A stretch of 64,000 nt of DNA from Acidobacteriota bacterium (GCA_040755995.1 JBFMAF010000036.1:32001-96000), one strand, 5' to 3'. Counted from the stretch's first letter, positions 15,639 to 39,214 are shown. Translations and numbers: made by a program. Notes: generated by a model from the sequence alone, not told the origin.

Positions 15639-16847
15639 TCAGGCACCCTTTTCCTTACCCAACCTGGCCTGGATAAATTCGAACGCCTTGATGACGTCCT
15701 TTACGTCGGACTCTGACCGGCACTGGAAGCTTTGCTTGTCGAGTGGCTCCGTACGGCGTCCGTCTTCGTATTTCCCGATGCCACCATGGCATTCGACCAC
15801 GAGCGCCTCTTCGGATTCGTGGTCGAACAAATTGAGCAGCGATTTGAGAAGAGCAGTCGCGTGTCCCTGGCCGAACTTACAGGCCCGGACATCGAACAGG
15901 AAGGTATTCTCCATCGAGTTCATCAAGGCGACTCCCTTGTCGTTGACCCTCATCAGGATGGAGTACTTCAGACGGTCGTTGATGTAGTCGACCGCTTCGG
16001 GGATCGTCGAATAAGACTTCGTCCTGGTTCCGGTCACGGCCTTCAGATTATTCACGGTCGCCGCATCCATCCCCGTGAAGGCGCTCTTGATGAAGTACAG
16101 AGCCCTTATCGTCTGGTATGCACCATCGCTACTCGCGACCTGGAACGACTCCCGCGAGACCACTCTTCCGCGGTCCTTTCCCGATAGCGATATGCACCAC
16201 TCGCCGTAGACTCTGACCTGAGGCTCGTCGCCCAGATCGTTGAATCCGAATTCAGCCTCTTTGATCTGCACGTCGTATATGTCGTCCGGGGCGTTGATCA
16301 GCATCCTGCCGTTCCGGTCCACCTTCATGATGGCGGAGATCGTCATTATCTCATTGATGAAGTCGATCGCCTCTGTCACGCTCTTGTACCGGCTGGAAGT
16401 AGGGCCGGTGTCGATCTTGGCGTCGTACGTTTCGAAGCCCTTGTCGCGCTCCACGTATGACTTCCTTAGGCGCCTGAAGGCGTCGATCACTTCACGGGCA
16501 TATTTTTCGGACTTGCACAGAAAGGACTGTCTGTGGGAAGTCTCTTCAAGATGACCGCCGTCGTACTGCCCGATGCAATATTCGCAAAAGACCCTCACCC
16601 TGGCATCGTCGTTCAATCCGTTGTAGTTGAAAGATGCCTCTTTGATGTCGAACTTGAACGTATCGTCGGGTGCCTTGATGCTGACAAGCCCGTCCTCGGC
16701 AATCCTCTCGATAGAGGAGCGCGACATTCTGAGGTTGATGTACTCGATGAGGTCGTCGACAGCAGGACTCTGGCCGTACGCGGGATTCATCTGCGAAAGA
16801 GCGATCACAGAGAAGCAGCACAGCAGCTTCTTAAGGTTGGACTTCAT
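15639..16847 (-). CDS. Secreted hypothetical protein with three internal repeats of about 125 aa
   Basis: Signal peptide MKSNLKKLLCCFSVIALSQMNPAYG; repeats start IEYINLRM, IDFINEIM and VDYINDRL. Confidence 0.8.
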   Translation of the reverse strand: MKSNLKKLLCCFSVIALSQMNPAYGQSPAVDDLIEYINLRMSRSSIERIAEDGLVSIKAPDDTFKFDIKEASFNYNGLNDDARVRVFCEYCIGQYDGGHLEETSHRQSFLCKSEKYAREVIDAFRRLRKSYVERDKGFETYDAKIDTGPTSSRYKSVTEAIDFINEIMTISAIMKVDRNGRMLINAPDDIYDVQIKEAEFGFNDLGDEPQVRVYGEWCISLSGKDRGRVVSRESFQVASSDGAYQTIRALYFIKSAFTGMDAATVNNLKAVTGTRTKSYSTIPEAVDYINDRLKYSILMRVNDKGVALMNSMENTFLFDVRACKFGQGHATALLKSLLNLFDHESEEALVVECHGGIGKYEDGRRTEPLDKQSFQCRSESDVKDVIKAFEFIQARLGKEKGA

Positions 16848-16976
16848 ATGCCTTTGCCTCCAGTTTCTTCTAGACATCCCTCAGAACCCTATGACGGATT
16901 CTGGCACCGAAATGTTCCGATCACCGCCAGGCTACAGAGCGCACGCGCGTAGTCTAGTTCGCGGTTCAGAACACCG

Positions 16977-20610: not shown

Positions 20611-22200
20611 CTACAGCACGCTCTTCAGAATGGCGTCGCACTCGTCCTTGTCGACGTCCATTACGAACTGGATGCCGCTGATGTCGGCGGCTTCCTTGGT
20701 CAGGCTGGCGATGTCGTCGCGACGGATATGCTCGAGCGAGAACTTGCGGTTGCCGGCCATGAGCTGGCGCAGCCCCTGCGCGAGGCGCTCGTAGTAGGTG
20801 TAGAGGCCGATCGCGCCGCACGGCAGCTTCTCGAACTCCACATCGCCCAGCTCGCGCCTGAGCTCGGCGGCCGTCACGAAGATCTCGTCCTTGGTGCTTC
20901 CGAACCGCTCGACGTAAACCGGCAGCTCGTGCTCCTCCATGGCACGTCCAATGGTCTTCCCGACCATCGCCGCGGCGATCGGTGCGCGCGCCATGCCGAC
21001 CATCTTCACGTACGGTGCGCCCAGCGCGAGACCCTTGAAGATCTGGTCCTCGAACGTGAACCCGCCCGCCACCACCACCGCCGGTACGTGCGCGCCCTTG
21101 TCGGCGATCCGCTTCGTATGCTGATAGAGCAGCGAGTGCAGCTCGACCGGCGGCACGCCCCACTCGTTCATCATCCGCCAGGGGCTCATGCCGGTGCCGC
21201 CTCCAGCGCCGTCCACAGTCAGCATGTCGAGCTTGTACTTCGAGCAGAACGCAACGGCTCGCGCGAGATCCGCCGGGCGGTACGCCCCGGTCTTCAAGAA
21301 GATGTACTTCGCGCCCGCCTTGCGCAGCTCGGCGATCCTCTGCGCGAAGCCCTCCTCCGACACCATCCCGACTCTGGAGTGCCGCTCGAACTCCTTGAAC
21401 ACACCGCGCTCGAACGCCCTGATCGCGACCGGATCGGTCGGATTCGGAAGAACGATGTAGCCGCGCTCGTACAGTATCTGCGCCTTCTTGAGGTTGTTGA
21501 TCTTGACCTCGCCGCCGATGTCCTTCGCCCCCTGGCCCCACTTCAGCTCCACGATCTCGACGCCGAGCTTCTCTATCGCGTACTCCTGCACGCCCAGGCG
21601 CGTGTCCTCGACGTTCGCCTGCACGATGATGGCGCCGTAGCTGTCATGCTGGTGATCCTTGTACAGCTTCACCCGCCGCTTCAGGTCCACCGTGTCGACG
21701 ACACGCCCGTGCTTGAACGTAGCGTCGGGGTCCATGCCGACCACGTTCTCGCCGATCGTCACGCCCGTGCCGGCGATGGCCGACCCCGAGGCGATGCCTT
21801 CCCAGTTGTTCTTCGCGATGTTGGTCGATCCGATGCCGGGGATGATCCAAGGCAGCTTGAACTTGATCCCCTTGTCGTGACCGAGCGCCACCTCGAGATT
21901 CACTTTTGGGAAAATCGCCTTGTCGCTGTCGGCCTCGATCCCGTGCGCGCCGACGGCCGTGCCCATGATGTTGAAGTGCGAGTAGTCGACCGGGTACATC
22001 TTCTCGCCCGCCGTCGTGATGACGCCGAACGGCTGCGGGTAGATCACCTCGTGCCCGCGATAAGCCGACTTGCCGATCTCGCACATGCCGACGCAGCCGT
22101 CGACACAGGTGACGCACATGCCGGATGTCGGGACGATGGACTGTTCGGTACGGTTCTTGGTCAGAGTTGCAGCGGAAGCATTAATTCTCGTCAATGACAT
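20611..22200 (-). CDS. FMN-binding glutamate-synthase-family protein (stand-alone GltB FMN domain, archaeal-type)
   Basis: VELKWGQGAKDIGGE, IFLKTG, TVDGAGGGTG, AGG...KGLALGA; N-terminal CVTCVDGCVGMC. Confidence 0.88.
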   Translation of the reverse strand: MSLTRINASAATLTKNRTEQSIVPTSGMCVTCVDGCVGMCEIGKSAYRGHEVIYPQPFGVITTAGEKMYPVDYSHFNIMGTAVGAHGIEADSDKAIFPKVNLEVALGHDKGIKFKLPWIIPGIGSTNIAKNNWEGIASGSAIAGTGVTIGENVVGMDPDATFKHGRVVDTVDLKRRVKLYKDHQHDSYGAIIVQANVEDTRLGVQEYAIEKLGVEIVELKWGQGAKDIGGEVKINNLKKAQILYERGYIVLPNPTDPVAIRAFERGVFKEFERHSRVGMVSEEGFAQRIAELRKAGAKYIFLKTGAYRPADLARAVAFCSKYKLDMLTVDGAGGGTGMSPWRMMNEWGVPPVELHSLLYQHTKRIADKGAHVPAVVVAGGFTFEDQIFKGLALGAPYVKMVGMARAPIAAAMVGKTIGRAMEEHELPVYVERFGSTKDEIFVTAAELRRELGDVEFEKLPCGAIGLYTYYERLAQGLRQLMAGNRKFSLEHIRRDDIASLTKEAADISGIQFVMDVDKDECDAILKSVL

Positions 22201-22301
22201 GGTTCTTTACTCCTTTCCTCGCGAGGCCGCAGCCTCGATATGAAGGGCCGCCCCGCGGGCCGCCCGGATGGTTTCTCCAACGGTCTGACGGATACACATG
22301 A

Positions 22302-22979
22302 CTAGTCTTTCTTGATCTCGCACGCGACGCACGGCGACATGAAGCACATCATGTCGTCGAACCCCTCCTTCTCGAGACACGGCGGGCTCAAGTTGGCGCA
22401 GCCGCCGCAGATGGCCTTGTCGGGTTCGGTGTACGTGCAGCGCAGCTGGCAGGCCGGGCAGACGTAGATGCATCCGCCGCACAGGCGGCAGACCTCCGAG
22501 CTGATGTCGAACGGAGTCGTGATGCGCCGGTGGTCGCCGCGCGCGGTGAACCCGATCGCCCCCGCCGCCATCTGCTCCTTGCACATCCGCACGCACAGAC
22601 CGCAGAGAATACAGTCCTCGTGTTCCTGGCGGAATCGTTGCTGGCGTACCTCATGGGCGGAGGCAAGATCCTGGATGATCTTGGATTGCGGGCACGAGGC
22701 CAGCAGCAGCTCCAGGATCATCTTGCGCGCGCGCACGACACGGTTGGATGCAGTGCGCACCACCGCCCCTTCCTCGGCCGGGTACGTGCACGAAGAGACC
22801 AACCTCGCCTTGGCGCCCTGGCCGATCTCGACCACGCACAGGCGACAGGCTCCGTAGGGCGTCAGGCCCTCCATGTGGCACAGGGTGGGGATGGGGAAGC
22901 CGAGGAACCTGGCCGCCTCAAGCAGCGTCGTGCCTTTTTCGACGGATACGGGCAACCCGTTGATCTTGATGTTGATCAC
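22302..22979 (-). CDS. NuoG/HydA N-terminal-like Fe-S protein (2Fe-2S plus 4Fe-4S) with Cys-rich tail
   Basis: IPTLCH...GACRLCVVE...SC; CILCGLCVRMC; CRLCGGCIYVCP; no H-cluster or Mo-domain motifs. Confidence 0.9.
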   Translation of the reverse strand: MINIKINGLPVSVEKGTTLLEAARFLGFPIPTLCHMEGLTPYGACRLCVVEIGQGAKARLVSSCTYPAEEGAVVRTASNRVVRARKMILELLLASCPQSKIIQDLASAHEVRQQRFRQEHEDCILCGLCVRMCKEQMAAGAIGFTARGDHRRITTPFDISSEVCRLCGGCIYVCPACQLRCTYTEPDKAICGGCANLSPPCLEKEGFDDMMCFMSPCVACEIKKD

Positions 22980-25900
22980 TGGGCACCTCCTGCATGGACA
23001 GTAGTTTCTTCGGGCTGTGGAGCCGGCTTGGTGAAGGCGAGGTCGCAGCGCAGACAGCGCCGCGCCTCACGCGCCGCCTGCTCCAGCGTGAACGCCTTCT
23101 CGACCTCGACGAAGCCGCTCAGCCTCTCGCATGTCGGCAGACGAGGCAGCTCGACGCGCCGCGCGGGTTCGGCGGCCTCGGGCTCGGGAGCGAGCGGTTC
23201 GACGTAGACGCTCGGCCTTCGCAGCTGCTCCGGTTGGGCCAGCACCTCCCGCCGCAGGTAGCGGTCGATCATCACCGCCGCCCTCTTTCCAGCAGCGATG
23301 GCATCCACCACGGTGTTGGGTCCGGTGACCACGTCGCCACCCGCGAACACCCCGGCGCGGTTCGTAAGCAGGGTGTCGGAATCGATCTTCACAGTGCCGC
23401 CTGCGGTGACCTCGATGCGGTTGACGCCGGCCACCGCGATGCAGTCCGTGTCGGAACCCTCGCTGATCGCCACGATCAGCGTATCGACCGGCACGCTGTA
23501 CTCTGTTCCTGGGATCGGCACAGGGCGGCGGCGACCGCTGGCATCGACCTCGCCCAGGCTGTTCTTGATCAGTTCGATCCCAGTGATGCTGCCATCCTTG
23601 GTGAGGATCCTCGTTGGCGCGGTGAGCGTCTTGATCGACACGCCCTCCTGCTCAGCGGCCTCCACCTCCTCGGCGAACGCCGGCATCTCCTTGAGCGTGC
23701 GGCGGTAGTATATCGTCACACTTTCTACGCCCGGCTGCCGCTTGGCGGTGCGCGCCGCGTCCACCGCGGAGTTGCCGCCGCCGACAACGGCCACACGGCC
23801 CCTGGCGAGTTGCTCCCCACGCTGGTTGTGCGCCTTCAGAAAGCTGATCGATGGGATCACACCCTTGGCATCCTCGCCGTCCAGGCCCAGGCGCAGGCTC
23901 TTGTGCGCTCCCAGCGCGACGAATATTGCGCCGTACCCCTTCTCGAACAGCGAGTCGAGGGTGATGTCGCGCCCCAGAGTGCTGTTGCAGACCAGAGTGA
24001 CATTCTCATCCAGAAGCGAGGCAATCTCCTTCCGCATGACCTCACGCGGCAGGCGATAGCCTGGGATAGCCGAGAACATCATGCCGCCCGGCTCGGCGTC
24101 CTGCTCGTAGACGGTGACCTTGTACCCTCTGAGAGACAGGTAGTGAGCCGCCGAAAGACCGGCGGGCCCCGACCCGATCACCGCGACTGGAGGTGACCCT
24201 GGAGGCGCACTGGTGTGGCGCACTGGTTTGAAGCTCATAGGATCGATGTTGTCGGTGATGAAGCGCTTGAGGGCGCGGATTGCGACCGGGTCGCCGCCCG
24301 TGGCCCCGGCCCGGCAGCGCTCCTCGCACGGATGATTGCACACTCGAGCACAGACGGACGGGAACGGGTTGGCTTCACGGATCGCCTGGTACGCCTCCTG
24401 GTACTCTCCGCGGCCAATGTGCGCGACGTATCGCCAGGCCTCGGTGCCCAACGGGCAGGCGGACTGGCAAGGAGCGCCGACCAGGTCGTTGCACACGAAG
24501 GCGTCGCACCGCTTGTGCACGATGTGCCGCTCGTACTCCTTGCGGAAGTAGCGCAGAGTGGAGAGAACCGGGTTCGACGCCGTCTGCCCCAGCCCGCACA
24601 TGCTCGTGTCCTTGACCACCTCAGCCAGCTCCTGCAGCAGCTTCAGCTGCGCCAGGGTCGCCTTGCCCTTGGACACGTCGTCGAGGATCTCCCACATGCG
24701 CTGCGTGCCCTTGCGGCAAGTGAAGCACTTCCCGCAGGACTCATCTTTGAGGAAGTTCATGAAGTACCTGGCGACGTCCACCATGCAGGTGTCTTCGTCC
24801 ATGACGATCATGCCGCCGGAACCCATGATCGAGCCTGCCTGAACCAGCGAATCGAAGTCTATCGGGAGGTCGAACATGGAGGCGGGTATGCAGCCTCCTG
24901 AGGGGCCGCCGGTCTGCACCGCCTTGACCTTGGCTCTTCCTGGTGCACCTCCGCCGATCTCGTGTACCACCTGGCGGATCTTGATCCCGAGGGGAACCTC
25001 GACCAGGCCGGTGTTGCGGATTTTCCCGACGAGCGAGAATATCTTCGTCCCGCTGTTGCCCGGCACGCCCACCTTGACGTACTCGGCCGCACCGTCTCTG
25101 ATGATGACTGGGACGTTGGCGAAGGTTTCCACGTTGTTGATGCAGGTGGGGCACCCGTCGATGCCTTTCTCGATCGGGTATGGCGGCCGCTGCCTGGGCT
25201 CGCCCCGGTAGCCCATCACGGACCTTATCAGGGCCGTCTCCTCTCCGCACACGAAAGCCCCGGCGCCACGCACGATCTCGATGTCGAAGCTGATACTTGT
25301 TCCGAGGATGTTCTCGCCCAGGAGACCATAGTCGTGCGCCTGCCTGAGGGCAATCGTGGTGTGCTTGATCGCAAGCGGGTACTCGCTGCGCACGTAGACG
25401 ATCCCACGGCTGGCGCCGATGGCGATGGCTCCAATGATCATCCCCTCGATGATGGCGTGCGGGTTGCCTTCCAGCAGACTGCGATCCATGTAAGCGCCGG
25501 GGTCACCCTCATCGCAGTTGCATACGATGTACTTCCGGCCCCCGCCGTTTCCAGCCGCACGGGCCAACTGCCACTTCATCCCCGTGAGGAATCCGGCACC
25601 ACCACGCCCGCGCAATCCCGATGCCTTGACCTCTGCCACGATCCACGCCGGATCGATCTTGCTGAGCACCTTCTCAAGCGCGGCGTAGCCGCCCTGGTCG
25701 AAGTAGTTCTCTATGCGTATCGGATCGAGCTGTTGGTTGCTGCCCAGGATCGTCCGCGTCTGGCTCTTGAAGAACGGAATGTCGCTCTGGCAGTGGTACT
25801 TCACCGTGGCGTGCGGCTCCCGGTACAGAAGGTCCTCCTCCACGTAGCCGCCCAACGCAGAGTTGATCACGCGCGGCACGTCCTCCATCTTCAACCTCGG

Positions 25901-26167
25901 ATACAGGTGCTGGCCGGGTTCCACCACGATGAACGGGTCCATCTCGCAGAACCCCTGGCAACCTGTGATCCTGAGCTGGATCTTGTCTTGAAGGTTGTGT
26001 TCCAGGATGTGGCGCTTGATGACCCTCATGATGTCGTTGGAGCCGCTGGCCTGGCCGCCCGTGCCCGCGCACAGCACGAGGGTGGGTCTTGCGGGCCGCG
26101 CGCTCTTCACTTCCTGGACGCGCCTGCGGAAGCTGATGAGTTCGTCAACCGATGTCAGTCTGACCAT
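22976..26167 (-). CDS. NuoF/HydB-like FMN/NADH subunit fused to a GltD/NfnB-like FAD oxidoreductase
   Basis: Thioredoxin-like 2Fe-2S N-terminus; SGLRGRGGAGF, CDEGDPGAYMDR, GAFVCGEETAL, ESCGKCFTCR; then APCQSACP, CARVCNHPCEERC, GSGPAG, GGGNSA, EARRCLRC. Confidence 0.92.
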   Translation of the reverse strand: MVRLTSVDELISFRRRVQEVKSARPARPTLVLCAGTGGQASGSNDIMRVIKRHILEHNLQDKIQLRITGCQGFCEMDPFIVVEPGQHLYPRLKMEDVPRVINSALGGYVEEDLLYREPHATVKYHCQSDIPFFKSQTRTILGSNQQLDPIRIENYFDQGGYAALEKVLSKIDPAWIVAEVKASGLRGRGGAGFLTGMKWQLARAAGNGGGRKYIVCNCDEGDPGAYMDRSLLEGNPHAIIEGMIIGAIAIGASRGIVYVRSEYPLAIKHTTIALRQAHDYGLLGENILGTSISFDIEIVRGAGAFVCGEETALIRSVMGYRGEPRQRPPYPIEKGIDGCPTCINNVETFANVPVIIRDGAAEYVKVGVPGNSGTKIFSLVGKIRNTGLVEVPLGIKIRQVVHEIGGGAPGRAKVKAVQTGGPSGGCIPASMFDLPIDFDSLVQAGSIMGSGGMIVMDEDTCMVDVARYFMNFLKDESCGKCFTCRKGTQRMWEILDDVSKGKATLAQLKLLQELAEVVKDTSMCGLGQTASNPVLSTLRYFRKEYERHIVHKRCDAFVCNDLVGAPCQSACPLGTEAWRYVAHIGRGEYQEAYQAIREANPFPSVCARVCNHPCEERCRAGATGGDPVAIRALKRFITDNIDPMSFKPVRHTSAPPGSPPVAVIGSGPAGLSAAHYLSLRGYKVTVYEQDAEPGGMMFSAIPGYRLPREVMRKEIASLLDENVTLVCNSTLGRDITLDSLFEKGYGAIFVALGAHKSLRLGLDGEDAKGVIPSISFLKAHNQRGEQLARGRVAVVGGGNSAVDAARTAKRQPGVESVTIYYRRTLKEMPAFAEEVEAAEQEGVSIKTLTAPTRILTKDGSITGIELIKNSLGEVDASGRRRPVPIPGTEYSVPVDTLIVAISEGSDTDCIAVAGVNRIEVTAGGTVKIDSDTLLTNRAGVFAGGDVVTGPNTVVDAIAAGKRAAVMIDRYLRREVLAQPEQLRRPSVYVEPLAPEPEAAEPARRVELPRLPTCERLSGFVEVEKAFTLEQAAREARRCLRCDLAFTKPAPQPEETTVHAGGAQ

Positions 26168-26179
26168 CTCGAATCTCCA

Positions 26180-27028
26180 TTAGAGCTCAGGGCCGGTGGC
26201 CGTCAGGTCAAGCATGTGGTTCCGGCAACCCCGGCGTGAGCAGAATTGCACAATGCCGCCACCGCGTATGATCATCGGCACCATCGGCGCATCGCACTCG
26301 ACGCAGGGCGGCGCACCGGCGAGCTCGGCGTTGCAGTGGGGGCAGAAGAAGTTGGCCGCCTCGCCCGCAGGAATCTCGTACTCGGTCTCGACGCTGTACG
26401 AGCCGTAGAGGCAGGAGAGCAGCACCCAGCCGCGTCTGTCTCGGAAGGAGACGGTGACCCTGACCCCAGGGAGGCCGTCCACGAGATGGGCCGGGTCCAT
26501 TAAGGTGTGACCACAACGGCCACAGGAAAGATCCACGGGGAAGACACGCCTATCGGTGTGGATGTCGATCTTGTCGAGCCCCTCTCTGGCCTTGTTCAGG
26601 ATGCGAGAGACCGACGTGGCCCCAACATTGGAGAAGTAGTGCCCGTCCACGACAACGATGGGCCCAAGGGCGCAGCCGCCGAGGCAGTTCTGCGTCTCCA
26701 GCGTGAATTCGCGGTCCGCCGTTGTGTCACCGGCCTTCACTCGGAGCTGGCGTTCAAGCTCCTCCGAGACCTTGGGCGCCCCCCGCACGTGGCACGCCGT
26801 TCCCAGACAGCAGGTGACCAGGTGCTTCCCGCGCGGCTTGAGACTGAACGCCCGGAAGAACGTGGCGACTCCATAGACGTCGACCAGCGAGCGGCCCGTC
26901 CTCTCGGCCACCGTCCGCAACGCTTCCGCAGGCAAGTATGAGTACTTCGTCTGAATCTCCTGCAGTATGGCGAGCAGATCGCCCCGCTCCCCGCTGTGCT
27001 TCTCGATAATCCTGGCAATCTCGCTCAT
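26180..27028 (-). CDS. NuoE/HydC-like 2Fe-2S subunit with C-terminal Cys-rich domain
   Basis: CLGTACHVRG...NCLGGCALGP; tail CGRC...CPHC...CVEC...CSRRGCRNH; RBS GGAGGTGG before the ATG at 27028. Confidence 0.9.
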   Translation of the reverse strand: MSEIARIIEKHSGERGDLLAILQEIQTKYSYLPAEALRTVAERTGRSLVDVYGVATFFRAFSLKPRGKHLVTCCLGTACHVRGAPKVSEELERQLRVKAGDTTADREFTLETQNCLGGCALGPIVVVDGHYFSNVGATSVSRILNKAREGLDKIDIHTDRRVFPVDLSCGRCGHTLMDPAHLVDGLPGVRVTVSFRDRRGWVLLSCLYGSYSVETEYEIPAGEAANFFCPHCNAELAGAPPCVECDAPMVPMIIRGGGIVQFCSRRGCRNHMLDLTATGPEL

Positions 27029-27129
27029 GCTTGCCACCTCCATGATGACGACTGGATGTCCTCAGGGACAGAGATGGGAGCACCTTCCCGGTGCTTCTCT
27101 ATCGCGCTGAGGACGCTTTCCGCTTTCAT
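27025..27129 (-). pseudogene. 34-aa ORF resembling a NuoE N-terminus, translationally coupled to the NuoE-like gene
   Basis: GGAGGAATAA-ATG; MKAESVLSAIEKHREGAPISVPEDIQSSSWRWQA*; ATGA overlap with MSEIARIIEKH. Confidence 0.55.
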
Positions 27130-32027: not shown

Positions 32028-33359
32028 ATGGACGTTCTGACGCTGTCGCGGATGCAGTTTGCAGTCGCGACGTATTTTCACTTTCTGTTCGTCCCGCTGA
32101 CGCTGGGGCTCTCTGTGCTCACTGCGATCATGGAGACGCGCTACGTGCGCACTGGAGATCCGGAGTACAAGCGCATGACGAAGTTCTGGGGCAAGCTGTT
32201 CCTGATCAACTTCGCCGTGGGCGTCGTAACCGGGATCACGCTCGAGTTCCAGTTCGGCACTAACTGGTCGCGCTACTCCTCGTACGTCGGCGACATCTTC
32301 GGGTCGCTGCTCGCGATCGAAGCCACGGTCGCCTTCTTCCTCGAATCAACCTTCATCGCAGTGTGGTTTTTCGGATGGGAAAAGCTCTCACCCAGGGCGC
32401 ACGCCACGACCATGTGGCTGGTCGCGATCGCCAGCAACATCTCGGCGGTCTGGATCCTGATCGCCAACGCATGGATGCAGCACCCGACCGGCTACGTCAT
32501 CCGCAACGGCCGGGCGGAGCTCGCGGATTTCATCGCCGTCGTCACGCAAAAGTTCGCAGTCCTGACCTTCATTCACACGGTGGGAGCCGCCTTCACGCTG
32601 GCCGGCTTCTTCGTCGCCGGCATCAGCGCCTGGCACCTGCTGCGCAAGCAGCATGTCGAGTTCTTCACGAGGTCATTCCGCCTCGCTGTGGGGTTCGGCC
32701 TGATCTGCTCGCTGTTCGAAGTAGCCCAGGGGCACATGAGCGCCGAAATGCTCGGCACCGCCCAGCCGACTAAACTGGCCGCGATGGAATCGCACTGGCA
32801 GACCCGAACGCATGCTCCGCTGTACCTGCTCCTCTGGCCCGATGCCGACAACGAGAGAAATGCCGTGCAGCTGCTGCCGGTGCCGAGCGCCCTGAGCATC
32901 CTGGCGCACTACAATCCTGGAGGCGAGGTCAAGGGACTCAAGGATTACCCGCGCGAAGACCGGCCCCCCGTCTTGCCTTCATTCCTCTCATTCCGGATCA
33001 TGGTCGGATTCTGCATGCTCTTCCTCGCGCTCACCGCCTTCGGGTGGTGGAAGCGCAACCGGCTCACGGCCTATCCCTGGTACCTCCGCATGATGGTCTG
33101 GGCCATCCCGCTGCCCTACGTGGCGTGCGAAGCAGGATGGACGTTGACCGAAGTCGGGCGACAGCCGTGGATCGTGTACGGCCTCATGAGGACGCGCGAT
33201 GCAGTTTCGCCTATTGCCGCCTCGCAGGTGCTGCCGACTCTCGTTGGCTTCATTCTTCTGTACAGTCTGCTAGGGTTCGCGGGGTTCTACCTGGTGTTCA
33301 GATTCGCACGCAAGGGACCCGAGCCAATTGAGCGGGCATCGAGCGCGCCGGCGAGGTAG
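32028..33359 (+). CDS. cydA: Cytochrome bd ubiquinol oxidase subunit I
   Basis: SRMQFA..YFHFLFVPLTLG, FQFGTNW, QPTKLAAME, FRIMVG, EVGRQPW. Confidence 0.97.
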   Translation: MDVLTLSRMQFAVATYFHFLFVPLTLGLSVLTAIMETRYVRTGDPEYKRMTKFWGKLFLINFAVGVVTGITLEFQFGTNWSRYSSYVGDIFGSLLAIEATVAFFLESTFIAVWFFGWEKLSPRAHATTMWLVAIASNISAVWILIANAWMQHPTGYVIRNGRAELADFIAVVTQKFAVLTFIHTVGAAFTLAGFFVAGISAWHLLRKQHVEFFTRSFRLAVGFGLICSLFEVAQGHMSAEMLGTAQPTKLAAMESHWQTRTHAPLYLLLWPDADNERNAVQLLPVPSALSILAHYNPGGEVKGLKDYPREDRPPVLPSFLSFRIMVGFCMLFLALTAFGWWKRNRLTAYPWYLRMMVWAIPLPYVACEAGWTLTEVGRQPWIVYGLMRTRDAVSPIAASQVLPTLVGFILLYSLLGFAGFYLVFRFARKGPEPIERASSAPAR

Positions 33360-33371
33360 GAGTTGGAGAAC

Positions 33372-34397
33372 ATGTTGGAAACAACCTGGTTTGTGATATG
33401 GGGCATTGCGTGGGCCGTCTACTTCTGCTTGGACGGCTTCGACCTGGGACTCGGCACGCTCATGCCGTTTCTGGCCAAGAACGACGACGAGCGCCGGATC
33501 ATCTACAACGCAATGGGGCCTTTCTGGGACGGCAACGAGGTGTGGCTGATCACGGCCGGAGGAGTCACGTTCGCCGCTTTCCCAAAGACCTACGCTGTGA
33601 TGTTCAGCGGGCTCTATACCCCGCTGATGCTGCTGTTGTTTGCGCTGATACTGCGAGGCGTTTCGTTCGAGTTCAGGAGCAAGCACCCCGGGACGGCGTG
33701 GCGCGCGACGTGGGATGCCTGTCTGGTGATCGGCAGCTTCGTGCCGGCACTACTTCTGGGCGTGGCATTCGCCAACATCTTCCGCGGCATCCCGATCGAT
33801 GCCGAAGGCATCAACCATGGCACGCTGCTGACTCTGCTCAATCCGTACGGACTCCTGGGCGGTGTCCTGTTCGTCCTCCTGTTCAGCCAGCACGGAGCGC
33901 TCTGGCTTGCCATCAAGTCAGAAGGCGCATTACACGCGCGGGCCGCTTCCACGGCGAGAATGCTCTGGCCGGTGCTGCTCGTGGTGGCCGCGGGATTCCT
34001 GGCAGCCTCATGGTTCGCCACGAACCTGTACCACAATCTGCTGTCACATCCGGTGCTCTTTCTCCTGCCAGCCCTTGCGGTAACAGGCCTCGTGCTGGCG
34101 CGTATCTACGTGTCGACCGCGCGTTGGTGGCACGCCTGGTTCGCCTCGTTTGCGGCGATCCTGGGCGCAACCATGTTCGGGGTGGCCGGGCTGTTCCCGA
34201 ACCTGCTGCCGTCCAGCCTGGATCCCACCTTCAGCCTGACCGCGTTCAATTCATCATCGAGCCCGCTGACGCTCAAGATCATGCTCGGTGTGGCGCTCAC
34301 CACCCTGCCGATAGTGATCGCATATCAGGTCTGGGCGTATGCGAAGTTCAGAGACAAGGTGACGGCAAGCTCTATCGCCGGAGAGCACGCGTACTGA
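33372..34397 (+). CDS. cydB: Cytochrome bd ubiquinol oxidase subunit II
   Basis: LDGFDLGLG, GPFWDGNEVWLITAGG, LRGVSFEFR. Confidence 0.97.
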   Translation: MLETTWFVIWGIAWAVYFCLDGFDLGLGTLMPFLAKNDDERRIIYNAMGPFWDGNEVWLITAGGVTFAAFPKTYAVMFSGLYTPLMLLLFALILRGVSFEFRSKHPGTAWRATWDACLVIGSFVPALLLGVAFANIFRGIPIDAEGINHGTLLTLLNPYGLLGGVLFVLLFSQHGALWLAIKSEGALHARAASTARMLWPVLLVVAAGFLAASWFATNLYHNLLSHPVLFLLPALAVTGLVLARIYVSTARWWHAWFASFAAILGATMFGVAGLFPNLLPSSLDPTFSLTAFNSSSSPLTLKIMLGVALTTLPIVIAYQVWAYAKFRDKVTASSIAGEHAY

Positions 34398-35242: not shown

Positions 35243-38200
35243 CTACTCCTTCACCTTGAGCCATTGGGCCTCCAGTCTCTTCAGGGAGACCGGGAGCGCA
35301 GTTCGGAGTTCCTGCGCGAATAGCGAGATCCGCATCTCTTCGAGCAGCCAGCGGTACCGGTCGAGCTCCGGATCGCTGAGTGCGCGCTGTCGGTGCGTGT
35401 CCCACCGCTCCATGTAGCTCCGCCACAGCGGTGCAATCACGGCGGCCCGCTCGCTGTCGGCTGCGACGCCGGCATTCGAGAGCTTGCTGAGCCTGATCAG
35501 CACCCCTTGCAGGTATCTGGGGAAGTGAGCGAGCCACTCGCGCTGGGTCTCGCTGATGAACCCCCCATGGACCAGATTCGAGAGCTGCTCCTTGATGTCC
35601 TCGATCGCCGGCGCCCAGGTCCCCGGGTGCGGCTCCGCGACTCGGACTGCCACGGCGGCGTATGCGTCGAGGACGCGGGCCACCAAGGCGGCCAGATTGC
35701 GGCCCGCGTCCAACAGCCGCCCCCTTGCGGCCTCGGCGTTGCGCTCGAAGTCGCCCTGCGCCCTCACGTCGAGGTCGGCCGGAATAGCATCTTGCACAAT
35801 TGCGTCTGCGAGATCGGTCTTCAGTTCCGCCGCCGTGCCGGCAGGTTTGTAGTTCTCGCACATCTGCTTGAGGTCCGGGAGAGAGGCGAGGACGTGACGG
35901 AGCTGGTCGCTGAGGTGCAGGGCGTACAACCGCCGCACGCCGCCGCAATTCGCGATGCGGGCAGTCTCGGGTGTGTCGAACAGCCGGAGCGAAACCGACG
36001 TGCCGCAGTCAACAAGCGCCGGCCAGCCGCGGATCCGCATCCCGTGTCGGTCGACCTCGACACTCTCGGCCATGTCTCCGAAGTCCCACCGAGCGATCCC
36101 GTCGCGGTTATAGGGTGACTCGCTGAGGATCTCCATCGGGGTCAGGCGCCGCACGCCGAGCCTGCGGCGGATCTCGGCCAGATCCCTCCCTGCGGCCACT
36201 TCCCTGCCGCCTTCGTCCACCACGCGGAACTGCATGCGGAGATGCGGCGTAAGCGATTCCAGATCGAAGTCGGCTGGCTCGACCTTGTCGAAGCCCTGCC
36301 GAGTGAGGTAGTCGGCGAGAGCCTCCGGGAGCGACAGAGGGCTGGATCGGATCGCGTCGTAGGCGCCGCGCGCATAGTCAGCCGCCGGGATGAACCTGGT
36401 TCGGAGGTGCTTAGGAAGTGTCCTGATGAGCGCCGTGATCTTCTCCAGAAGCAGACCGGGCACGAGCCAGTCGAACCGCTCGCCCGGGACCTCCTCAATG
36501 GCATGCAGCGGTATTGTAACCGTGACGCCGTCACCGGGTCGCCCGGGCTCGTGCCGGTATTCCAGCGGCAGCTCCAGGCCTTGCGCATTCATGAAATCCG
36601 GGAACTGCTCCTGCGTGATACCCCTTGCATCGTGCAACATCAAGTCGCTGCGGCTCATGAAGAGAAGCCTCGGCTTCTGCCGTTCCGCCTGTTTCCGCCA
36701 TGCCTCGAAAGCGCGCGACTCGTAGATCGACGCGGGGATCCGCGCGTCGTAGAAGTCGAAGCGCGACCGCTCGTCGACGAGCACATCGCGCCGGCGGCTC
36801 TTCGCCTCGAGCAGCTCGATCTCATCCACGAGCCTGCGATTGTGCCAGAGAAACGGGGCATCCGAGTCGTACTCTTCGCCGGCGAGTGCTCGCTGGATGA
36901 ATATCTCTCGCGCCGTCATCGGGTCGACGGGGCCGTAGTGCACCGGCCGCTTCTCAACCACCGGCAGGTCGAATACCGTGACCCGCTCATCCGCCACCAC
37001 GCGGCCGCTCCGCTGGTCCCAGCGCGGATCGGAGTACGTGCGCACGGCCACATGGGCGCCGATCTGCTCCACCCACTCCGGCAGTATCCGCGCAACTGTG
37101 CGGGCGTAGAGCTTGGTGGTCTCGACCAGCTCCGCCGACATGACCCACGGGGGCTTGATTGAAAAGAGCCCCGAGGACGGGTGCAGGTAGAACTTCACGC
37201 CACGAGCGCCGAGGTACTCCACGGTCTCCGACTTCGTCCCGCAGGAGCTCAGCAGCCCTGAGAGCAGGGATCGATGGATCGAAGCGTATCGCTTCGCATC
37301 CGAGGTCTTGGGCTTCTCACCGGCTTCGGTCTTCGCGCCCGGGCGGCTATCTGGCGGCTTCGACGCTCTCAGCCCAGCCTCTGAGACGAGAGATCGGAGC
37401 TGCTGGTGGATGTCCTGCCATTCGCGCATCCGGATGAACGAGAGATAGTTCGTGCGGCAGAGCCTGCGGAGCTTGCTGGCGGAGAGTTGCCCGGCCTGCT
37501 CTGAGTAGAACTCCCAGAGCTTGAGATAGGCCAGGAAGTCGGAGTCCGCCACGCGGAACTGTGCGTGTGCCTCATCCGCCGCCTCGGTCACATCCATCGG
37601 ACGCTCCCGCGGATCCTGGACCGACAACGCCGCGGCGATGACAAGCACCTCGTCCAGGCAGCCCTCCTCGCGCGCCTCCAGGATCATTCTCCCGATCCGC
37701 GGATCGACGGGCAGGCGAGCCAGCTCGCGACCGATCTCGGTGAGCTCATCGTGAACGTCGATCGCCTGCAGTTCCCGCAGCGTATCGTAGCCGTCCCTGA
37801 CCATGCGCGGGTCCGGGCGTTCGAGGAACGGGAACTCGTGCACGTCGCCAAGGCGCAGCGCCTTCATGCGGAGAATGGCGCCGGCGAGGTTCGTGCGCAG
37901 TATCTCGGGCGGGGTGTAGAGTGCCCTGGCCGCGGCATCCTCCTCCGAATACAGACGAACGCAGATCCCTGCGCTGATGCGGCCGCAGCGTCCCTTGCGC
38001 TGGTTGGCGGAGGCCTGCGAGATCTTCTCGATCGGGAGCCGTTGGACACGCGTCCGATGACTGTACCTGCTGATCCGCGCGAAGCCCGGGTCAATGACGT
38101 ACCGGATGCCCGGCACCGTGAGGGAGGTCTCTGCGACGTTGGTCGCAAGAACGATCCTCCGGCCCGGGTGAGGCTGGAAGACGCGCGCCTGCTCCTGGAA

Positions 38201-39214
38201 GCTCAGCCGCGCGTACAGCGGCAGGATCTCCGTGCCGCGCAGACGGTGCCTCCGCAGCGCCTCGGCTGTCTCGCGGATCTCCCGTTCGCCGCTCAGGAAG
38301 ACCAGCACGTCGCCCTCCCCCTCGCGCATCACCTCGTCCACCGCCGCCACGATCCCATCGAGCTGCCGCACGTCTGCCTCATCCGAGTCATCGGCCTGCA
38401 GCGGCCGGTAGCGTACATCCACGGGGTACATGCGCCCGGAGACTTCCACGATCGGAGCCTCGTCGAAAAACCGGCTGAACCGCTCCGGATCGATCGTCGC
38501 CGACGTCACGATCAGTTTCAAGTCGCGGCGGCGATCAAGGAGCTGCCGGAGATAGCCAAGGAGAAAATCGATGTTCAGGCTGCGCTCGTGGGCTTCATCG
38601 ATGATGATCGTGTCGTATTGATCGAGATGCCTGTCCGTCTGTGTCTCGGCCAGCAGAATCCCGTCGGTCATGACCTTGATGTAGGTGTCCAGGCTGAACC
38701 GGTCGGAGAAGCGGACCTGGTAGCCGACGGCGTGCCCCAGCGTAGAGTCGAGCTCCTGCGCAATCCGAGCCGCAATCGCCCGGGCCGCGATGCGCCTCGG
38801 CTGCGTGTGGCCGATCATGCCCGACACACCGCGCCCCACTTCGAGGCATATCTTGGGGATCTGCGTCGTCTTGCCCGACCCGGTCTCGCCGCATATCACG
38901 ACAACCTGATGCCGCAGGATCGCCCGCGCGATCTCGCGCCGCTTCTCTACAACCGGCAGGCTCTCCGGATAGGCAGGCCTCGGGAGATTGGCGCGGCGGC
39001 GCTCGCGACGCGACTTCGATCGCGTGATCGCATTCAGCAGCTCCTGCCAGTCGGCGCGTGGCGCGCGCCGGTCCGGGCCGGGATGAGACAGAGCGCGGAG
39101 CCGCCGGCGGAGCGCTGACTGGTCCGCCAGCATGCATTCCGATATCTCGCGATGCAGATCCCGGCGTGGACGCCCCGGCCGCGGCGCGGCCTTCATTTCG
39201 CGATCCTCTCCCAT
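35243..39214 (-). CDS. hrpA: ATP-dependent RNA helicase HrpA
   Basis: GETGSGKTTQIPK, TQPRRIAAR, DEAHERSLN, TSATID, QRKGRCGR; C-terminal RWLLEEMRISLFAQEL (DUF3418). Confidence 0.97.
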   Translation of the reverse strand: MGEDREMKAAPRPGRPRRDLHREISECMLADQSALRRRLRALSHPGPDRRAPRADWQELLNAITRSKSRRERRRANLPRPAYPESLPVVEKRREIARAILRHQVVVICGETGSGKTTQIPKICLEVGRGVSGMIGHTQPRRIAARAIAARIAQELDSTLGHAVGYQVRFSDRFSLDTYIKVMTDGILLAETQTDRHLDQYDTIIIDEAHERSLNIDFLLGYLRQLLDRRRDLKLIVTSATIDPERFSRFFDEAPIVEVSGRMYPVDVRYRPLQADDSDEADVRQLDGIVAAVDEVMREGEGDVLVFLSGEREIRETAEALRRHRLRGTEILPLYARLSFQEQARVFQPHPGRRIVLATNVAETSLTVPGIRYVIDPGFARISRYSHRTRVQRLPIEKISQASANQRKGRCGRISAGICVRLYSEEDAAARALYTPPEILRTNLAGAILRMKALRLGDVHEFPFLERPDPRMVRDGYDTLRELQAIDVHDELTEIGRELARLPVDPRIGRMILEAREEGCLDEVLVIAAALSVQDPRERPMDVTEAADEAHAQFRVADSDFLAYLKLWEFYSEQAGQLSASKLRRLCRTNYLSFIRMREWQDIHQQLRSLVSEAGLRASKPPDSRPGAKTEAGEKPKTSDAKRYASIHRSLLSGLLSSCGTKSETVEYLGARGVKFYLHPSSGLFSIKPPWVMSAELVETTKLYARTVARILPEWVEQIGAHVAVRTYSDPRWDQRSGRVVADERVTVFDLPVVEKRPVHYGPVDPMTAREIFIQRALAGEEYDSDAPFLWHNRRLVDEIELLEAKSRRRDVLVDERSRFDFYDARIPASIYESRAFEAWRKQAERQKPRLLFMSRSDLMLHDARGITQEQFPDFMNAQGLELPLEYRHEPGRPGDGVTVTIPLHAIEEVPGERFDWLVPGLLLEKITALIRTLPKHLRTRFIPAADYARGAYDAIRSSPLSLPEALADYLTRQGFDKVEPADFDLESLTPHLRMQFRVVDEGGREVAAGRDLAEIRRRLGVRRLTPMEILSESPYNRDGIARWDFGDMAESVEVDRHGMRIRGWPALVDCGTSVSLRLFDTPETARIANCGGVRRLYALHLSDQLRHVLASLPDLKQMCENYKPAGTAAELKTDLADAIVQDAIPADLDVRAQGDFERNAEAARGRLLDAGRNLAALVARVLDAYAAVAVRVAEPHPGTWAPAIEDIKEQLSNLVHGGFISETQREWLAHFPRYLQGVLIRLSKLSNAGVAADSERAAVIAPLWRSYMERWDTHRQRALSDPELDRYRWLLEEMRISLFAQELRTALPVSLKRLEAQWLKVKE

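What the first reader, a model, noticed from the sequence alone, without database searches (positions are those of the whole stretch)
20611..27129. Hydrogenase-less HydABC-like operon wired to a stand-alone glutamate-synthase FMN domain: candidate electron-bifurcating amino-acid oxidoreductase
Seen: four co-oriented genes encoding a NuoE/HydC-like subunit, a NuoF/HydB-GltD fusion, a NuoG/HydA N-terminal Fe-S protein with no H-cluster or Mo domain, and a GltB-type FMN barrel. There are no membrane Nuo subunits. Known: HydABC-type cores bifurcate electrons and are reused with diverse catalytic modules; HydB of bifurcating enzymes has an N-terminal thioredoxin-like 2Fe-2S domain, a GDPGA-x-M motif and a C-terminal Cys/His metal site. 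All three appear here (CDEGDPGAYMDR; TCMVD...HIVHKRCDAFVC). Inference: a soluble complex coupling NADH/NADPH (with or without ferredoxin) to reductive amination or oxidation at the GltB-like FMN site.
Basis: partly seen in the sequence, partly recalled or inferred. Interest (0 to 1): 0.75.

Follow-up and report, generated by a model that had tools for sequence, protein, structure and literature searches.

The report
Bifurcating-type module wired to glutamate flavoenzyme
Four linked genes, kept together in bacteria of many phyla, join the NADH-handling core of electron-bifurcating enzymes to a distant relative of the glutamate synthase active-site domain; the predicted complex likely makes glutamate from 2-oxoglutarate and free ammonium without ATP, and I found no paper that describes it.

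Summary
The operon is real. It encodes BfuC/NuoE with an extra Cys-rich domain, BfuB/NuoF fused to a GltD-like domain, a type-2 BfuA with a Cys-rich tail, and a 529-aa FMN barrel (GltX) distantly related to the glutamate synthase synthase domain. BfuA lies directly before GltX in 79 of 80 related loci. The BfuA tail occurs only in genomes with GltX (28 of 28), and Bfu-linked GltX forms one clade. Across three separate lineages GltX sits beside glutamate dehydrogenase, glutamine synthetase or GltB genes, which points to glutamate chemistry. It lacks the [3Fe-4S] motif and has no amidotransferase partner nearby. BfuB keeps most bifurcation signatures, but in this copy the ferredoxin-binding clusters are replaced by an NADP(H)-type FAD domain. 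23 of 76 relatives keep the canonical ferredoxin end, so this copy fails strict Bfu membership while its siblings pass. Best reading (about 40%): a soluble complex that merges electrons from NADH and NADPH (ferredoxin in siblings) to aminate 2-oxoglutarate. Substrate, direction, coupling and complex formation are untested. Ten literature searches found no description. This scan has already noted the same operon on other DNA (look-alikes in 72 windows of 71 genomes).

The parts
27025..27129 (-). 34-codon relic ORF with a strong ribosome-binding site; resembles residues 1-27 of family BfuC proteins; its stop overlaps the bfuC start. Probably a scar of a duplicated or replaced first gene, not a subunit.
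   Evidence: 55-59% identity over 29 columns to BfuC of L061/L072, E 2e-6 and 1e-7 among 78 sequences
26180..27028 (-). bfuC (NuoE/HydC-like, 282 aa): C1 [2Fe-2S] thioredoxin domain plus a ~130-aa C-terminal domain with eight conserved Cys (double zinc-ribbon-like)
   Evidence: PF01257 E 9e-44; the four C1 Cys in 77-78 of 78 homologues, tail Cys in 62 of 78 and the domain absent in 16; PF12773 weak, E 0.0017
22976..26167 (-). bfuB (1063 aa): thioredoxin-like domain (3 Cys), FMN/NADH domain, B1 cluster and B2 His/Cys site, then a DPD-II two-[4Fe-4S] domain and an FAD/NADP(H)-type GltD-like domain in place of the ferredoxin-type B3/B4 domain
22302..22979 (-). bfuA (225 aa, type 2): [2Fe-2S] plus two [4Fe-4S] motifs, no His-ligated A3 motif, no catalytic domain; C-terminal tail with seven nearly invariant Cys, predicted adaptor to GltX
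   Evidence: closest solved chain WorA 9MQX_A, E 3e-49; tail found only in GltX-bearing genomes
20611..22200 (-). gltX (529 aa): FMN-type (beta/alpha)8 barrel distantly related to the GltB synthase domain; invariant N-terminal Cys29/32/36/40 motif; no [3Fe-4S] motif; predicted catalytic subunit

Best explanation
The four genes are one conserved unit that likely encodes a soluble type-2 Bfu-like iron-sulfur flavoenzyme whose GltX subunit is predicted to aminate 2-oxoglutarate with free ammonium to glutamate, using electrons likely merged (confurcated) from NADH and a lower-potential donor. Shown: gene linkage, domain content, conserved cofactor motifs and the fold class of GltX. Inferred path: NADH reduces the FMN of BfuB. 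The low-potential input enters at the BfuB C-terminus: NADPH through the fused GltD-like FAD and two [4Fe-4S] clusters in this copy, ferredoxin through B3/B4 in the short-form siblings. Electrons would leave through B1 and the three BfuA clusters, cross the Cys-rich BfuA tail to the N-terminal four-Cys cluster of GltX (standing in for the [3Fe-4S] of glutamate synthase), and reach its FMN, which would reduce 2-iminoglutarate by hydride transfer as in GltS. The result would be an ATP-free route of ammonium assimilation that works at lower ammonium than NADH alone allows, and, together with the neighbouring GDH, a possible redox-balancing cycle.
For: Linkage: bfuA directly upstream of gltX in 79 of 80 named GTDB loci from well over a dozen phyla (the other locus ends 68 nt upstream) and in 18 of 20 loci of the window's phylum. 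The BfuA tail matches 28 of 301 genomes, all among the 33 that have gltX. Bfu-linked GltX is one clade (24 rows, SH-aLRT 100). WorA, the closest solved BfuA, uses its own Cys4 zinc finger and end helix to recruit the catalytic module (PMC12318220). Glutamate link: GDH within the locus in 6 of 20 and 12 of 80 Bfu-linked loci (0.19 expected by chance in 18 of them); glnA in 10 of 40 and archaeal-type gltB in 9 of 40 Bacillota loci; GDH in 28 of 80 archaeal-like loci, 25 directly adjacent (identities). GltX aligns over the whole barrel with archaeal-type GltB2 (hhalign probability 98.6-99.4). The equivalents of GltS Glu903, Lys966, Gln969, Lys972 and Lys1034 are invariant in 139 of 139 sequences, and Thr1065 is Thr or Ser in all. 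Among 48,161 chains, GltS gives the longest structural alignment of the 50 rows shown (6S6S_A, Z 23.5, rmsd 3.6, 336 aligned, 18%). BfuB keeps A225, M227, F305 and the B2 ligands C461, H548, C554, C559 in 76 of 76, the signatures of bifurcating beta subunits (PMC7311640, PMC12018979). The ferredoxin-type and GltD-type ends are swapped repeatedly (13 changes, at least 8 forced by starred branches), as expected of interchangeable low-potential ports. Thermodynamics with assumed pools: NADH alone turns uphill somewhere between about 1 and 0.05 mM ammonium, NADH+NADPH about a hundredfold lower, and NADH+ferredoxin stays downhill to 1 micromolar.
Against: No activity, binding or expression data. 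GltX is very distant from GltS (Pfam E 1e-15; profile versus PDB only E 0.014). Type 2 IPP isomerases and alpha-hydroxy-acid oxidases score higher by Z (25-27) than GltS (23.5). The 2-oxoglutarate-binding Arg992 has no in-register match, and the model is unreliable exactly at residues 1-67, 227-230 and 333-346. This BfuB lacks B3/B4, reads A-Y-M (71 of 76) and has only one Cys in the first B5 motif (53 of 76), so coupling may be lost or altered. NADPH alone is a better donor than NADH+NADPH, so strict coupling has little thermodynamic benefit in the fused form. All 24 of 24 well-assembled carriers already have GDH, and this genome also has another GltB and three GDHs, so the enzyme is not needed as the only assimilation route. 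Carriers lack GltB only slightly more often than non-carriers (GltB in 7 of 27 versus 11 of 27). No GDH or glnA gene was recognised beside the window's own copy.
Confidence: 0.4

Rival explanations
1. Same complex and same substrate, but no strict energy coupling. It is a GDH-like or GltS-like enzyme with two alternative electron ports (NADH at FMN, NADPH or ferredoxin at the BfuB C-terminus), possibly fed ammonia by an amidotransferase encoded elsewhere.
For: B3/B4 missing, B5 degenerate, A-Y-M. A HydB lacking B3/B4 was non-bifurcating (PMC11406978 passage). GltD-like domains normally just pass NADPH electrons to a partner (PMC8097209). NADPH alone suffices thermodynamically.
Against: The B2 His/Cys site and the A/M/F signature, absent from non-bifurcating homologues, are kept in 76 of 76. 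No amidotransferase was found in the 100 wide loci of the two Bfu-linked sets with the query used.
Confidence: 0.2
2. A re-wired confurcating glutamate dehydrogenase for amino-acid fermenters. Glutamate (high potential) and NADPH or reduced ferredoxin (low potential) together reduce two NAD+, which makes glutamate oxidation possible at high ammonium, in the way the lactate dehydrogenase-Etf complex drives lactate oxidation (recalled).
For: Downhill by 3-38 kJ in all cases tried, while glutamate to NAD+ alone is uphill by 4-16 kJ. GDH genes of two subfamilies are neighbours. The family deviates from characterised BfuB at the flavin-site motif and at B5.
Against: In the Bfu enzymes described in the papers read, the A-branch substrate is the one split between NAD and ferredoxin, and none has NADH as the middle couple (PMC9304861). 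Stand-alone relatives sit inside glnA/ANTAR/gltB clusters, which are assimilatory.
Confidence: 0.15
3. The third substrate is not glutamate but another 2-oxo/imino or 2-hydroxy acid handled by the FMN barrel.
For: Top structural neighbours are IDI-2 and alpha-hydroxy-acid oxidases. Arg992 is not matched in register. Most loci have no nitrogen gene nearby (68 of 80, 11 of 20, 30 of 40 and 47 of 80). Split GltB-like domains have been reused before, as in MgsC of N-methylglutamate synthase (PMC6237917).
Against: The only Pfam and Atlas family found is Glu_synthase, and the link to GDH/GlnA/GltB recurs in separate branches of the GltX tree.
Confidence: 0.15
4. GltX is mainly a 2-oxoglutarate/redox sensor or a GDH-binding regulator (like the GltAB-GudB counter-enzyme), and the BfuBC-GltD part acts as an NADH/NADPH transhydrogenase that it gates.
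For: gltX is directly beside gdh in 25 of 80 archaeal-like loci, all 24 of 24 well-assembled carriers have GDH, and GltA silences GudB in Bacillus subtilis (bioRxiv 10.1101/2021.04.12.439528).
Against: In that complex the central domain and a loop before it bind GudB, not the synthase domain that GltX resembles. GltX keeps the flavin-site residues and a four-Cys motif, and is wired to a dedicated Fe-S relay.
Confidence: 0.07

Closest known systems
Type 2 Bfu enzymes, especially WorABCSL of Acetomicrobium mobile (PDB 9MQX; PMC12318220, PMC9304861)
   Same: BfuC, BfuB and a short BfuA with A1/A2/A4 but no A3, a Cys-rich C-terminal adaptor, and a separate catalytic subunit. WorA is the best solved match of the BfuA profile; HydB/WorB/NfnB are the best matches of BfuB.
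   Different: The extra subunit is an FMN barrel, not a tungsten enzyme. The BfuA tail has seven conserved Cys and is not matched beyond residue 196. This BfuB has no B3/B4 domain, and BfuC carries an extra Cys-rich domain. No glutamate-type Bfu is listed among the third reactions in PMC9304861 Table 1.
Sub-type I BfuB of Hydrogenedentota [FeFe]-hydrogenases (PMC11406978) and HydB of archaeal group F hybrid hydrogenases (PMC11216029)
   Same: In PMC11406978 B3/B4 is replaced by DPD-II plus an FAD/NAD(P) domain, the architecture seen here; PMC11216029 describes a glutamate-synthase-type domain on HydB. Neither passage read reports an assay of that domain.
   Different: Those are hydrogenases with an H-cluster; here there is none and the A branch leads to GltX.
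Nfn-Bfu / Stn transhydrogenases (PDB 9N5U, 8OH5, 9BOV; PMC12018979)
   Same: A Bfu core plus a GltD-like NADP(H) FAD domain (E 3.5e-103 to NfnA).
   Different: There the FAD domain is on the A (mid-potential) branch and ferredoxin binds at B3/B4; here it occupies the B3/B4 position and the A branch goes to a fourth subunit.
Synthase (FMN) domain of glutamate synthase: GltB/Fd-GltS (PDB 6S6S, 1LLW) and split archaeal-type GltB2 or MgsC
   Same: Same barrel class and conserved flavin/2-oxoglutarate-site motifs.
   Different: 18-27% identity. No [3Fe-4S] motif in 139 of 139 sequences, a new N-terminal four-Cys motif, and no amidotransferase or archaeal-type GltB2 found in the Bfu-linked loci.

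Membership tests
Bfu (BfuABC) family | BfuC with the C1 [2Fe-2S] thioredoxin domain | tested here: met
   PF01257 E 9e-44; four Cys in 77-78 of 78 homologues
Bfu (BfuABC) family | BfuB with FMN/NADH, SLBB and B1 [4Fe-4S] domains | tested here: met
   PF01512 and PF10589 over cut-off, PF10531 weak; E 1e-190 to HydB 7Q4V_B
Bfu (BfuABC) family | C-terminal ferredoxin-type domain with B3 and B4 clusters (IPR017896 in the definition of PMC9304861) | tested here: not met
   Window protein and 52 other fused forms end in DPD-II + FAD instead. The 23 short forms do end in a ferredoxin-type domain (22 with two regular motifs, one with a variant).
Bfu (BfuABC) family | B2 site (three Cys + His) | tested here: met
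   C461, H548, C554, C559 in 76 of 76; ligands as described in PMC12018979 section 6
Bfu (BfuABC) family | B5 site in the N-terminal thioredoxin domain ([2Fe-2S], or Zn in T. sibiricus NfnB) | tested here: inconclusive
   Three Cys in the window protein; one Cys in the first motif in 53 of 76, both Cys of the second motif in 76 of 76. Zn at B5 is compatible with bifurcation.
Bfu (BfuABC) family | Ala/Met/Phe signature of bifurcating beta subunits (PMC7311640) | tested here: met
   A225, M227, F305 in 76 of 76; the middle residue of AFM is Tyr in 71 of 76
Bfu (BfuABC) family, type 2 | BfuA with A1, A2, A4, lacking A3/A5 and a catalytic domain, plus an extra subunit | tested here: met
   Cys pattern; best solved match WorA; gltX linked
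Bfu (BfuABC) family | Tightly coupled NAD(H)- and ferredoxin-dependent turnover | not testable with these tools
   needs enzyme assay
Glutamate synthase (GltB/Fd-GltS) | FMN (beta/alpha)8 synthase domain | tested here: met
   PF01645; hhalign 98.6-99.4 to GltB2; model pLDDT 80.7; Z 23.5, rmsd 3.6, 336 aligned to 6S6S_A
Glutamate synthase (GltB/Fd-GltS) | [3Fe-4S] Cys motif in the synthase domain | tested here: not met
   0 of 139 sequences carry it; the aligned segment has no Cys
Glutamate synthase (GltB/Fd-GltS) | Glutamine amidotransferase domain, fused or as a neighbouring subunit | tested here: not met
   None in the 529-aa protein and none found in the 100 wide loci of the two Bfu-linked sets with one query; a partner encoded elsewhere is not excluded
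Glutamate synthase (GltB/Fd-GltS) | 2-oxoglutarate ligands (Lys972, Arg992, Thr1065 in Fd-GltS numbering; their role is recalled, no paper found) | tested here: inconclusive
   K226 invariant, T336 Thr/Ser in all; Arg992 not in register, R246 or R276 are candidates; these loops have pLDDT under 50
Respiratory complex I N-module | Membrane Nuo subunits in the operon and a full-length NuoG | tested here: not met
   No such neighbours in the clustered loci; the genome has a weaker-scoring NuoF/G-like pair elsewhere

The most novel reading that the evidence does not exclude
A new class of Bfu enzyme with glutamate as third substrate: an energy-coupled, ATP-free glutamate synthase/dehydrogenase that confurcates NADH with ferredoxin or NADPH to fix ammonium at micromolar levels. 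It would be built on an old, undescribed family of stand-alone Fe-S/FMN glutamate enzymes (GltX) spread through anaerobic bacteria and archaea: a third route of ammonium assimilation beside GS-GOGAT and GDH, and a natural experiment in swapping the low-potential port of a bifurcating core.
Probability: 0.3. Interest if true: 0.85.

Novelty: new variant of a known kind. Interest (0 to 1): 0.64.

Why it matters
The Bfu family was proposed to hide many unknown third reactions (17 clades without an assigned function, PMC9304861). This operon names a concrete, abundant candidate in amino-acid/nitrogen metabolism, where no Bfu type is listed. If it fixes ammonium without ATP it changes the nitrogen and energy budgets of many uncultured anaerobes. 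The paired natural forms (ferredoxin end versus NADPH/FAD end on otherwise close BfuB proteins) make an open question testable with ordinary NAD(P)H assays: does a BfuB with a DPD-II/FAD end still couple two donors? GltX itself (at least 8000 clusters at 90% identity) is routinely annotated as glutamate synthase although it lacks two defining parts.

Tried and rejected
A model of BfuA could not be obtained, so its tail has no structural test. Sequence search of GltX against solved structures found nothing meaningful and the profile search reached GltS only at E 0.014. GltS chains are not among the 50 entries shown in the Foldseek-based lists; the wide search found it. Expression: no RNA holder was listed. 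Promoter/terminator scan: no excess over shuffles, and no sigma-54 consensus upstream of the window copy. The idea that the operon replaces GOGAT was not supported: GltB in 7 of 27 carriers versus 11 of 27 non-carriers. Replacement of GDH was rejected (24 of 27 carriers have it; no non-carrier control was run). Canonical bifurcating oxidation of glutamate was rejected on thermodynamics. Complex I N-module or hydrogenase was rejected on domain content. Reading 27129 as the NuoE start was rejected (different frame). The ECF sigma gene upstream and the ORFs downstream are not conserved neighbours. Literature searches gave no paper on this operon or on GltX. PMC5736913, PMC7325909 and PMC9012536 were read as passages and were not relevant. 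No paper giving the GltS 2-oxoglutarate ligands was found.
Full report
OBSERVATION. The minus strand carries four ORFs in one direction: 27028-26180 (282 aa), 26167-22976 (1063 aa), 22979-22302 (225 aa) and 22200-20611 (529 aa). Pfam and NCBIfam give a NuoE/HydC-like protein, a NuoF/HydB fused to a GltD-like DPD-II/FAD domain, the N-terminal Fe-S part of NuoG/HydA without a catalytic domain, and a weak Glu_synthase match (E 1.2e-15 over residues 279-400). I call them BfuC, BfuB, BfuA and GltX. It resembles the first 27 residues of other family BfuC proteins, and its stop overlaps the bfuC start. The genome holds one gltX copy, three other HydABC-like sets, another GltB and three GDH genes.

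THE UNIT IS CONSERVED. GltX has at least 8000 relatives at 90% clustering, the best 120 at 80% identity or more, yet few full-length clusters at 50%. bfuA ends within 204 nt of gltX in 78 of these 80. One more (L128) was anchored on a second gltX copy by my script and shows the full operon. The last one ends 68 nt upstream. A stricter count gave 77 of 80. Record titles span well over a dozen phyla. In an even sample of the window's phylum, 33 of 301 genomes have gltX; I fetched wide loci for 20 of the 33, and 18 have the Bfu genes in the same order (one lacks bfuC at a contig end). The BfuA C-terminal tail matches 28 of the same 301 genomes, all among the 33; the five without it are two distant (42-43%) copies, two fragments and one partial copy. 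One locus fetched by two tools was counted once in alignments and trees but twice in the two set tallies.

GLTX IS OLDER THAN THE PARTNERSHIP. In the phylum of L128 (Bacillota), 68 of 251 genomes match. Of 40 wide loci fetched (of 70 matches), only 1 has the Bfu genes. None of 80 metagenome loci related to an archaeal representative has them; archaeal MCM genes nearby suggest that many are archaeal. Bfu-linked GltX forms one side of a branch (24 of 54 sampled rows, SH-aLRT 100, quick LG+G4; 121-row FastTree, where the one exception is a contig-edge case). The trees are unrooted and warn of long branches among the stand-alone groups.

GLUTAMATE LINK. GDH lies within the locus in 12 of 80 and 6 of 20 loci of the Bfu-linked sets; from the GDH counts and sizes of 18 of those genomes 0.19 would be expected (kin are not independent). 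Of six GDH neighbours scanned, four pass the NCBIfam cut-off for NADP-specific GDH and two match GDH families below cut-off. Bacillota copies sit by glnA (10 of 40, 9 adjacent), ANTAR regulators and split gltB genes (9 of 40). Archaeal-like copies have GDH in 28 of 80, 25 adjacent. Most loci in every set have no such neighbour. Many Bfu-linked loci are preceded by a histidine kinase (40 of 101), a sigma-54 regulator (44) and a small Cys-rich protein (38), with a sigma-54 consensus upstream in 21 of 71 (5 on the other strand). The regulator cannot be assigned to NtrC (below all cut-offs), and the window copy has none of these beside it.

GLTX ANATOMY. Profile alignment covers the barrel of archaeal-type GltB2 (probability 98.6 local, 99.4 global). 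Through GltB2 to Fd-GltS, E151, K220, Q223, K226, K303 and T336 correspond to Glu903, Lys966, Gln969, Lys972, Lys1034 and Thr1065. The first five are invariant in 139 sequences, and the last is Thr or Ser. That Lys972, Arg992 and Thr1065 bind 2-oxoglutarate is recalled, not read (one search found no paper), and Arg992 has no in-register match. The [3Fe-4S] motif is absent in 139 of 139, while Cys29/32/36/40 are present in 137 of 139 (two rows lack the N-terminus). The AlphaFold2 model (pLDDT 80.7, pTM 0.82) is a (beta/alpha)8 barrel but unreliable at 1-67, 227-230 and 333-346. Type 2 IPP isomerases and hydroxy-acid oxidases rank first (Z 25-27); GltS follows at Z 23.5, rmsd 3.6, with the longest alignment (336) and the highest identity (18%) of the rows shown. 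The fold shows the FMN class, not the substrate.

BFU ANATOMY. BfuB is closest to bifurcating HydB, NiFe-HydB, WorB and NfnB (E 1e-190 to 1e-176). Among 76 full-length family members (five partial, split or duplicate rows dropped) A225, M227, F305 and the B2 ligands are invariant; position 226 is Tyr in 71; the first B5 motif has one Cys in 53. 53 are fused to DPD-II/FAD with a GGGNxA motif and an Arg-Arg pair, read as NADP(H) signatures from general knowledge of Rossmann folds. 23 end in a ferredoxin-type domain. The two ends are interspersed on the tree of the NuoF part: 13 changes, at least 8 forced by starred branches, against a shuffled mean of 22. The tree cannot say which end came first. 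BfuA matches WorA best (E 3e-49), lacks the His-ligated cluster motif, and has seven nearly invariant extra Cys.

MECHANISM. By analogy with WorABCSL, where the WorA C-terminus recruits the catalytic module (PMC12318220, passages), I infer the path NADH/FMN - B1 - BfuA clusters - GltX N-terminal cluster - FMN - 2-iminoglutarate, with a second input at the BfuB C-terminus. The hydride step follows GltS (PMC8097209, section 6.1 read whole). With a recalled standard potential of -0.13 V, assumed pools and carrier potentials from PMC9304861, amination by NADH alone fails below roughly 1-0.05 mM ammonium, NADH+NADPH reaches about a hundredfold lower, and NADH+ferredoxin stays downhill to 1 micromolar. 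Canonical bifurcating oxidation is 28-74 kJ uphill, whereas a re-wired scheme with NAD+ as the common acceptor is downhill. I give the coupled aminating reading 0.40, uncoupled glutamate chemistry 0.20, the re-wired oxidising scheme 0.15, another substrate 0.15 and a regulatory role 0.07. Against the best reading: NADPH alone would do better than NADH+NADPH; GDH is in 24 of 27 carriers; GltB is in 7 of 27 carriers versus 11 of 27 others; there are no expression or binding data.

WHAT IS KNOWN. PMC9304861 (parts 1-6 of 9 read) defines Bfu by domains that include the B3/B4 ferredoxin domain, lists no glutamate type and leaves 17 clades unassigned. Its text has no occurrence of 'glutamate synthase', and the one supplementary file held as text has none of my terms, but I could not see its supplementary figures or table, where short-form members could be listed. 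The fused BfuB architecture is in print for hydrogenases (PMC11406978, passages; a related fusion in PMC11216029, passages). Signature residues are from PMC7311640 (passages) and PMC12018979 (passages and section 6). MgsC is from PMC6237917 (passages) and the GudB-GltAB complex from bioRxiv 10.1101/2021.04.12.439528 (passages). Ten searches of an open-access library found no paper on the operon; subscription journals are mostly outside it. This scan has noted the same operon before on other DNA; those notes are unchecked AI notes and were not used as evidence, though one gave the lead to the WorABCSL paper.

VERDICT. A real, widespread, apparently undescribed type-2 Bfu-like system with a new kind of extra subunit. 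It works like a Bfu enzyme by anatomy; this copy is not a strict member (no B3/B4) and GltX is not a glutamate synthase by definition. New variant of a known kind; interest 0.64.

Noticed in passing
window 27025-27129 (-): Relic of a bfuC start from what looks like a different orthologue, with a strong ribosome-binding site and a stop overlapping the present bfuC start; it may couple translation or mark an operon replacement.
   Followed up: partly
L051:4815-5102, L059:4727-5182 and 36 more loci: A ~100-aa protein with two Cys-rich repeats and no Pfam match lies between the sigma-54 regulator and bfuC in 38 of 101 loci; it was not found in the window's genome.
   Followed up: partly
window 26183-26578 (-): The C-terminal Cys8 domain of BfuC (62 of 78 homologues) also scores against small stand-alone proteins in the Atlas (0.93-0.94) and two other places in the genome; function unknown.
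   Followed up: partly
L057:1841-4834, L061:6554-9802; G000 C31 and C41: Large PPDK_N-domain proteins (some with a receiver or nucleotidyltransferase domain) recur next to GDH genes and next to this operon, possibly a GDH-modifying system.
   Followed up: no
L250, L253, L266 and other metagenome loci: In archaeal-like contigs gltX and gdh form a tandem pair; some have a second, longer GDH-like gene and a KaiC-like ATPase upstream.
   Followed up: partly
L128:3099-11581: Dethiobacter alkaliphilus has two gltX copies 4 kb apart, one stand-alone and one Bfu-linked with a fully canonical BfuB, each preceded by an IclR regulator; a good cultured test case.
   Followed up: partly
G000 C26:158400-165800, C29:17100-27900, C42:83800-86950: Three further HydABC-like sets in the same genome: one followed by genes that read like NiFe-hydrogenase subunits, one beside MvhD/Hdr-like genes, one unassigned; labels are from ORF starts only.
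   Followed up: no
G000 C47:21089-27369 (L131, L135): The genome's other glutamate synthase has a rearranged layout: an ~825-aa protein with two Glu_synthase matches followed by an amidotransferase/GXGXG protein.
   Followed up: no
window 32028-34397 (+), 39540-40823 (+), 35243-39214 (-): Cytochrome bd oxidase subunits I and II, a lysine 2,3-aminomutase-like radical SAM protein and an HrpA-type helicase; unrelated to the operon.
   Followed up: no
window 15639-16877 (-): 412-aa secreted-looking protein with three internal repeats and no Pfam match.
   Followed up: no
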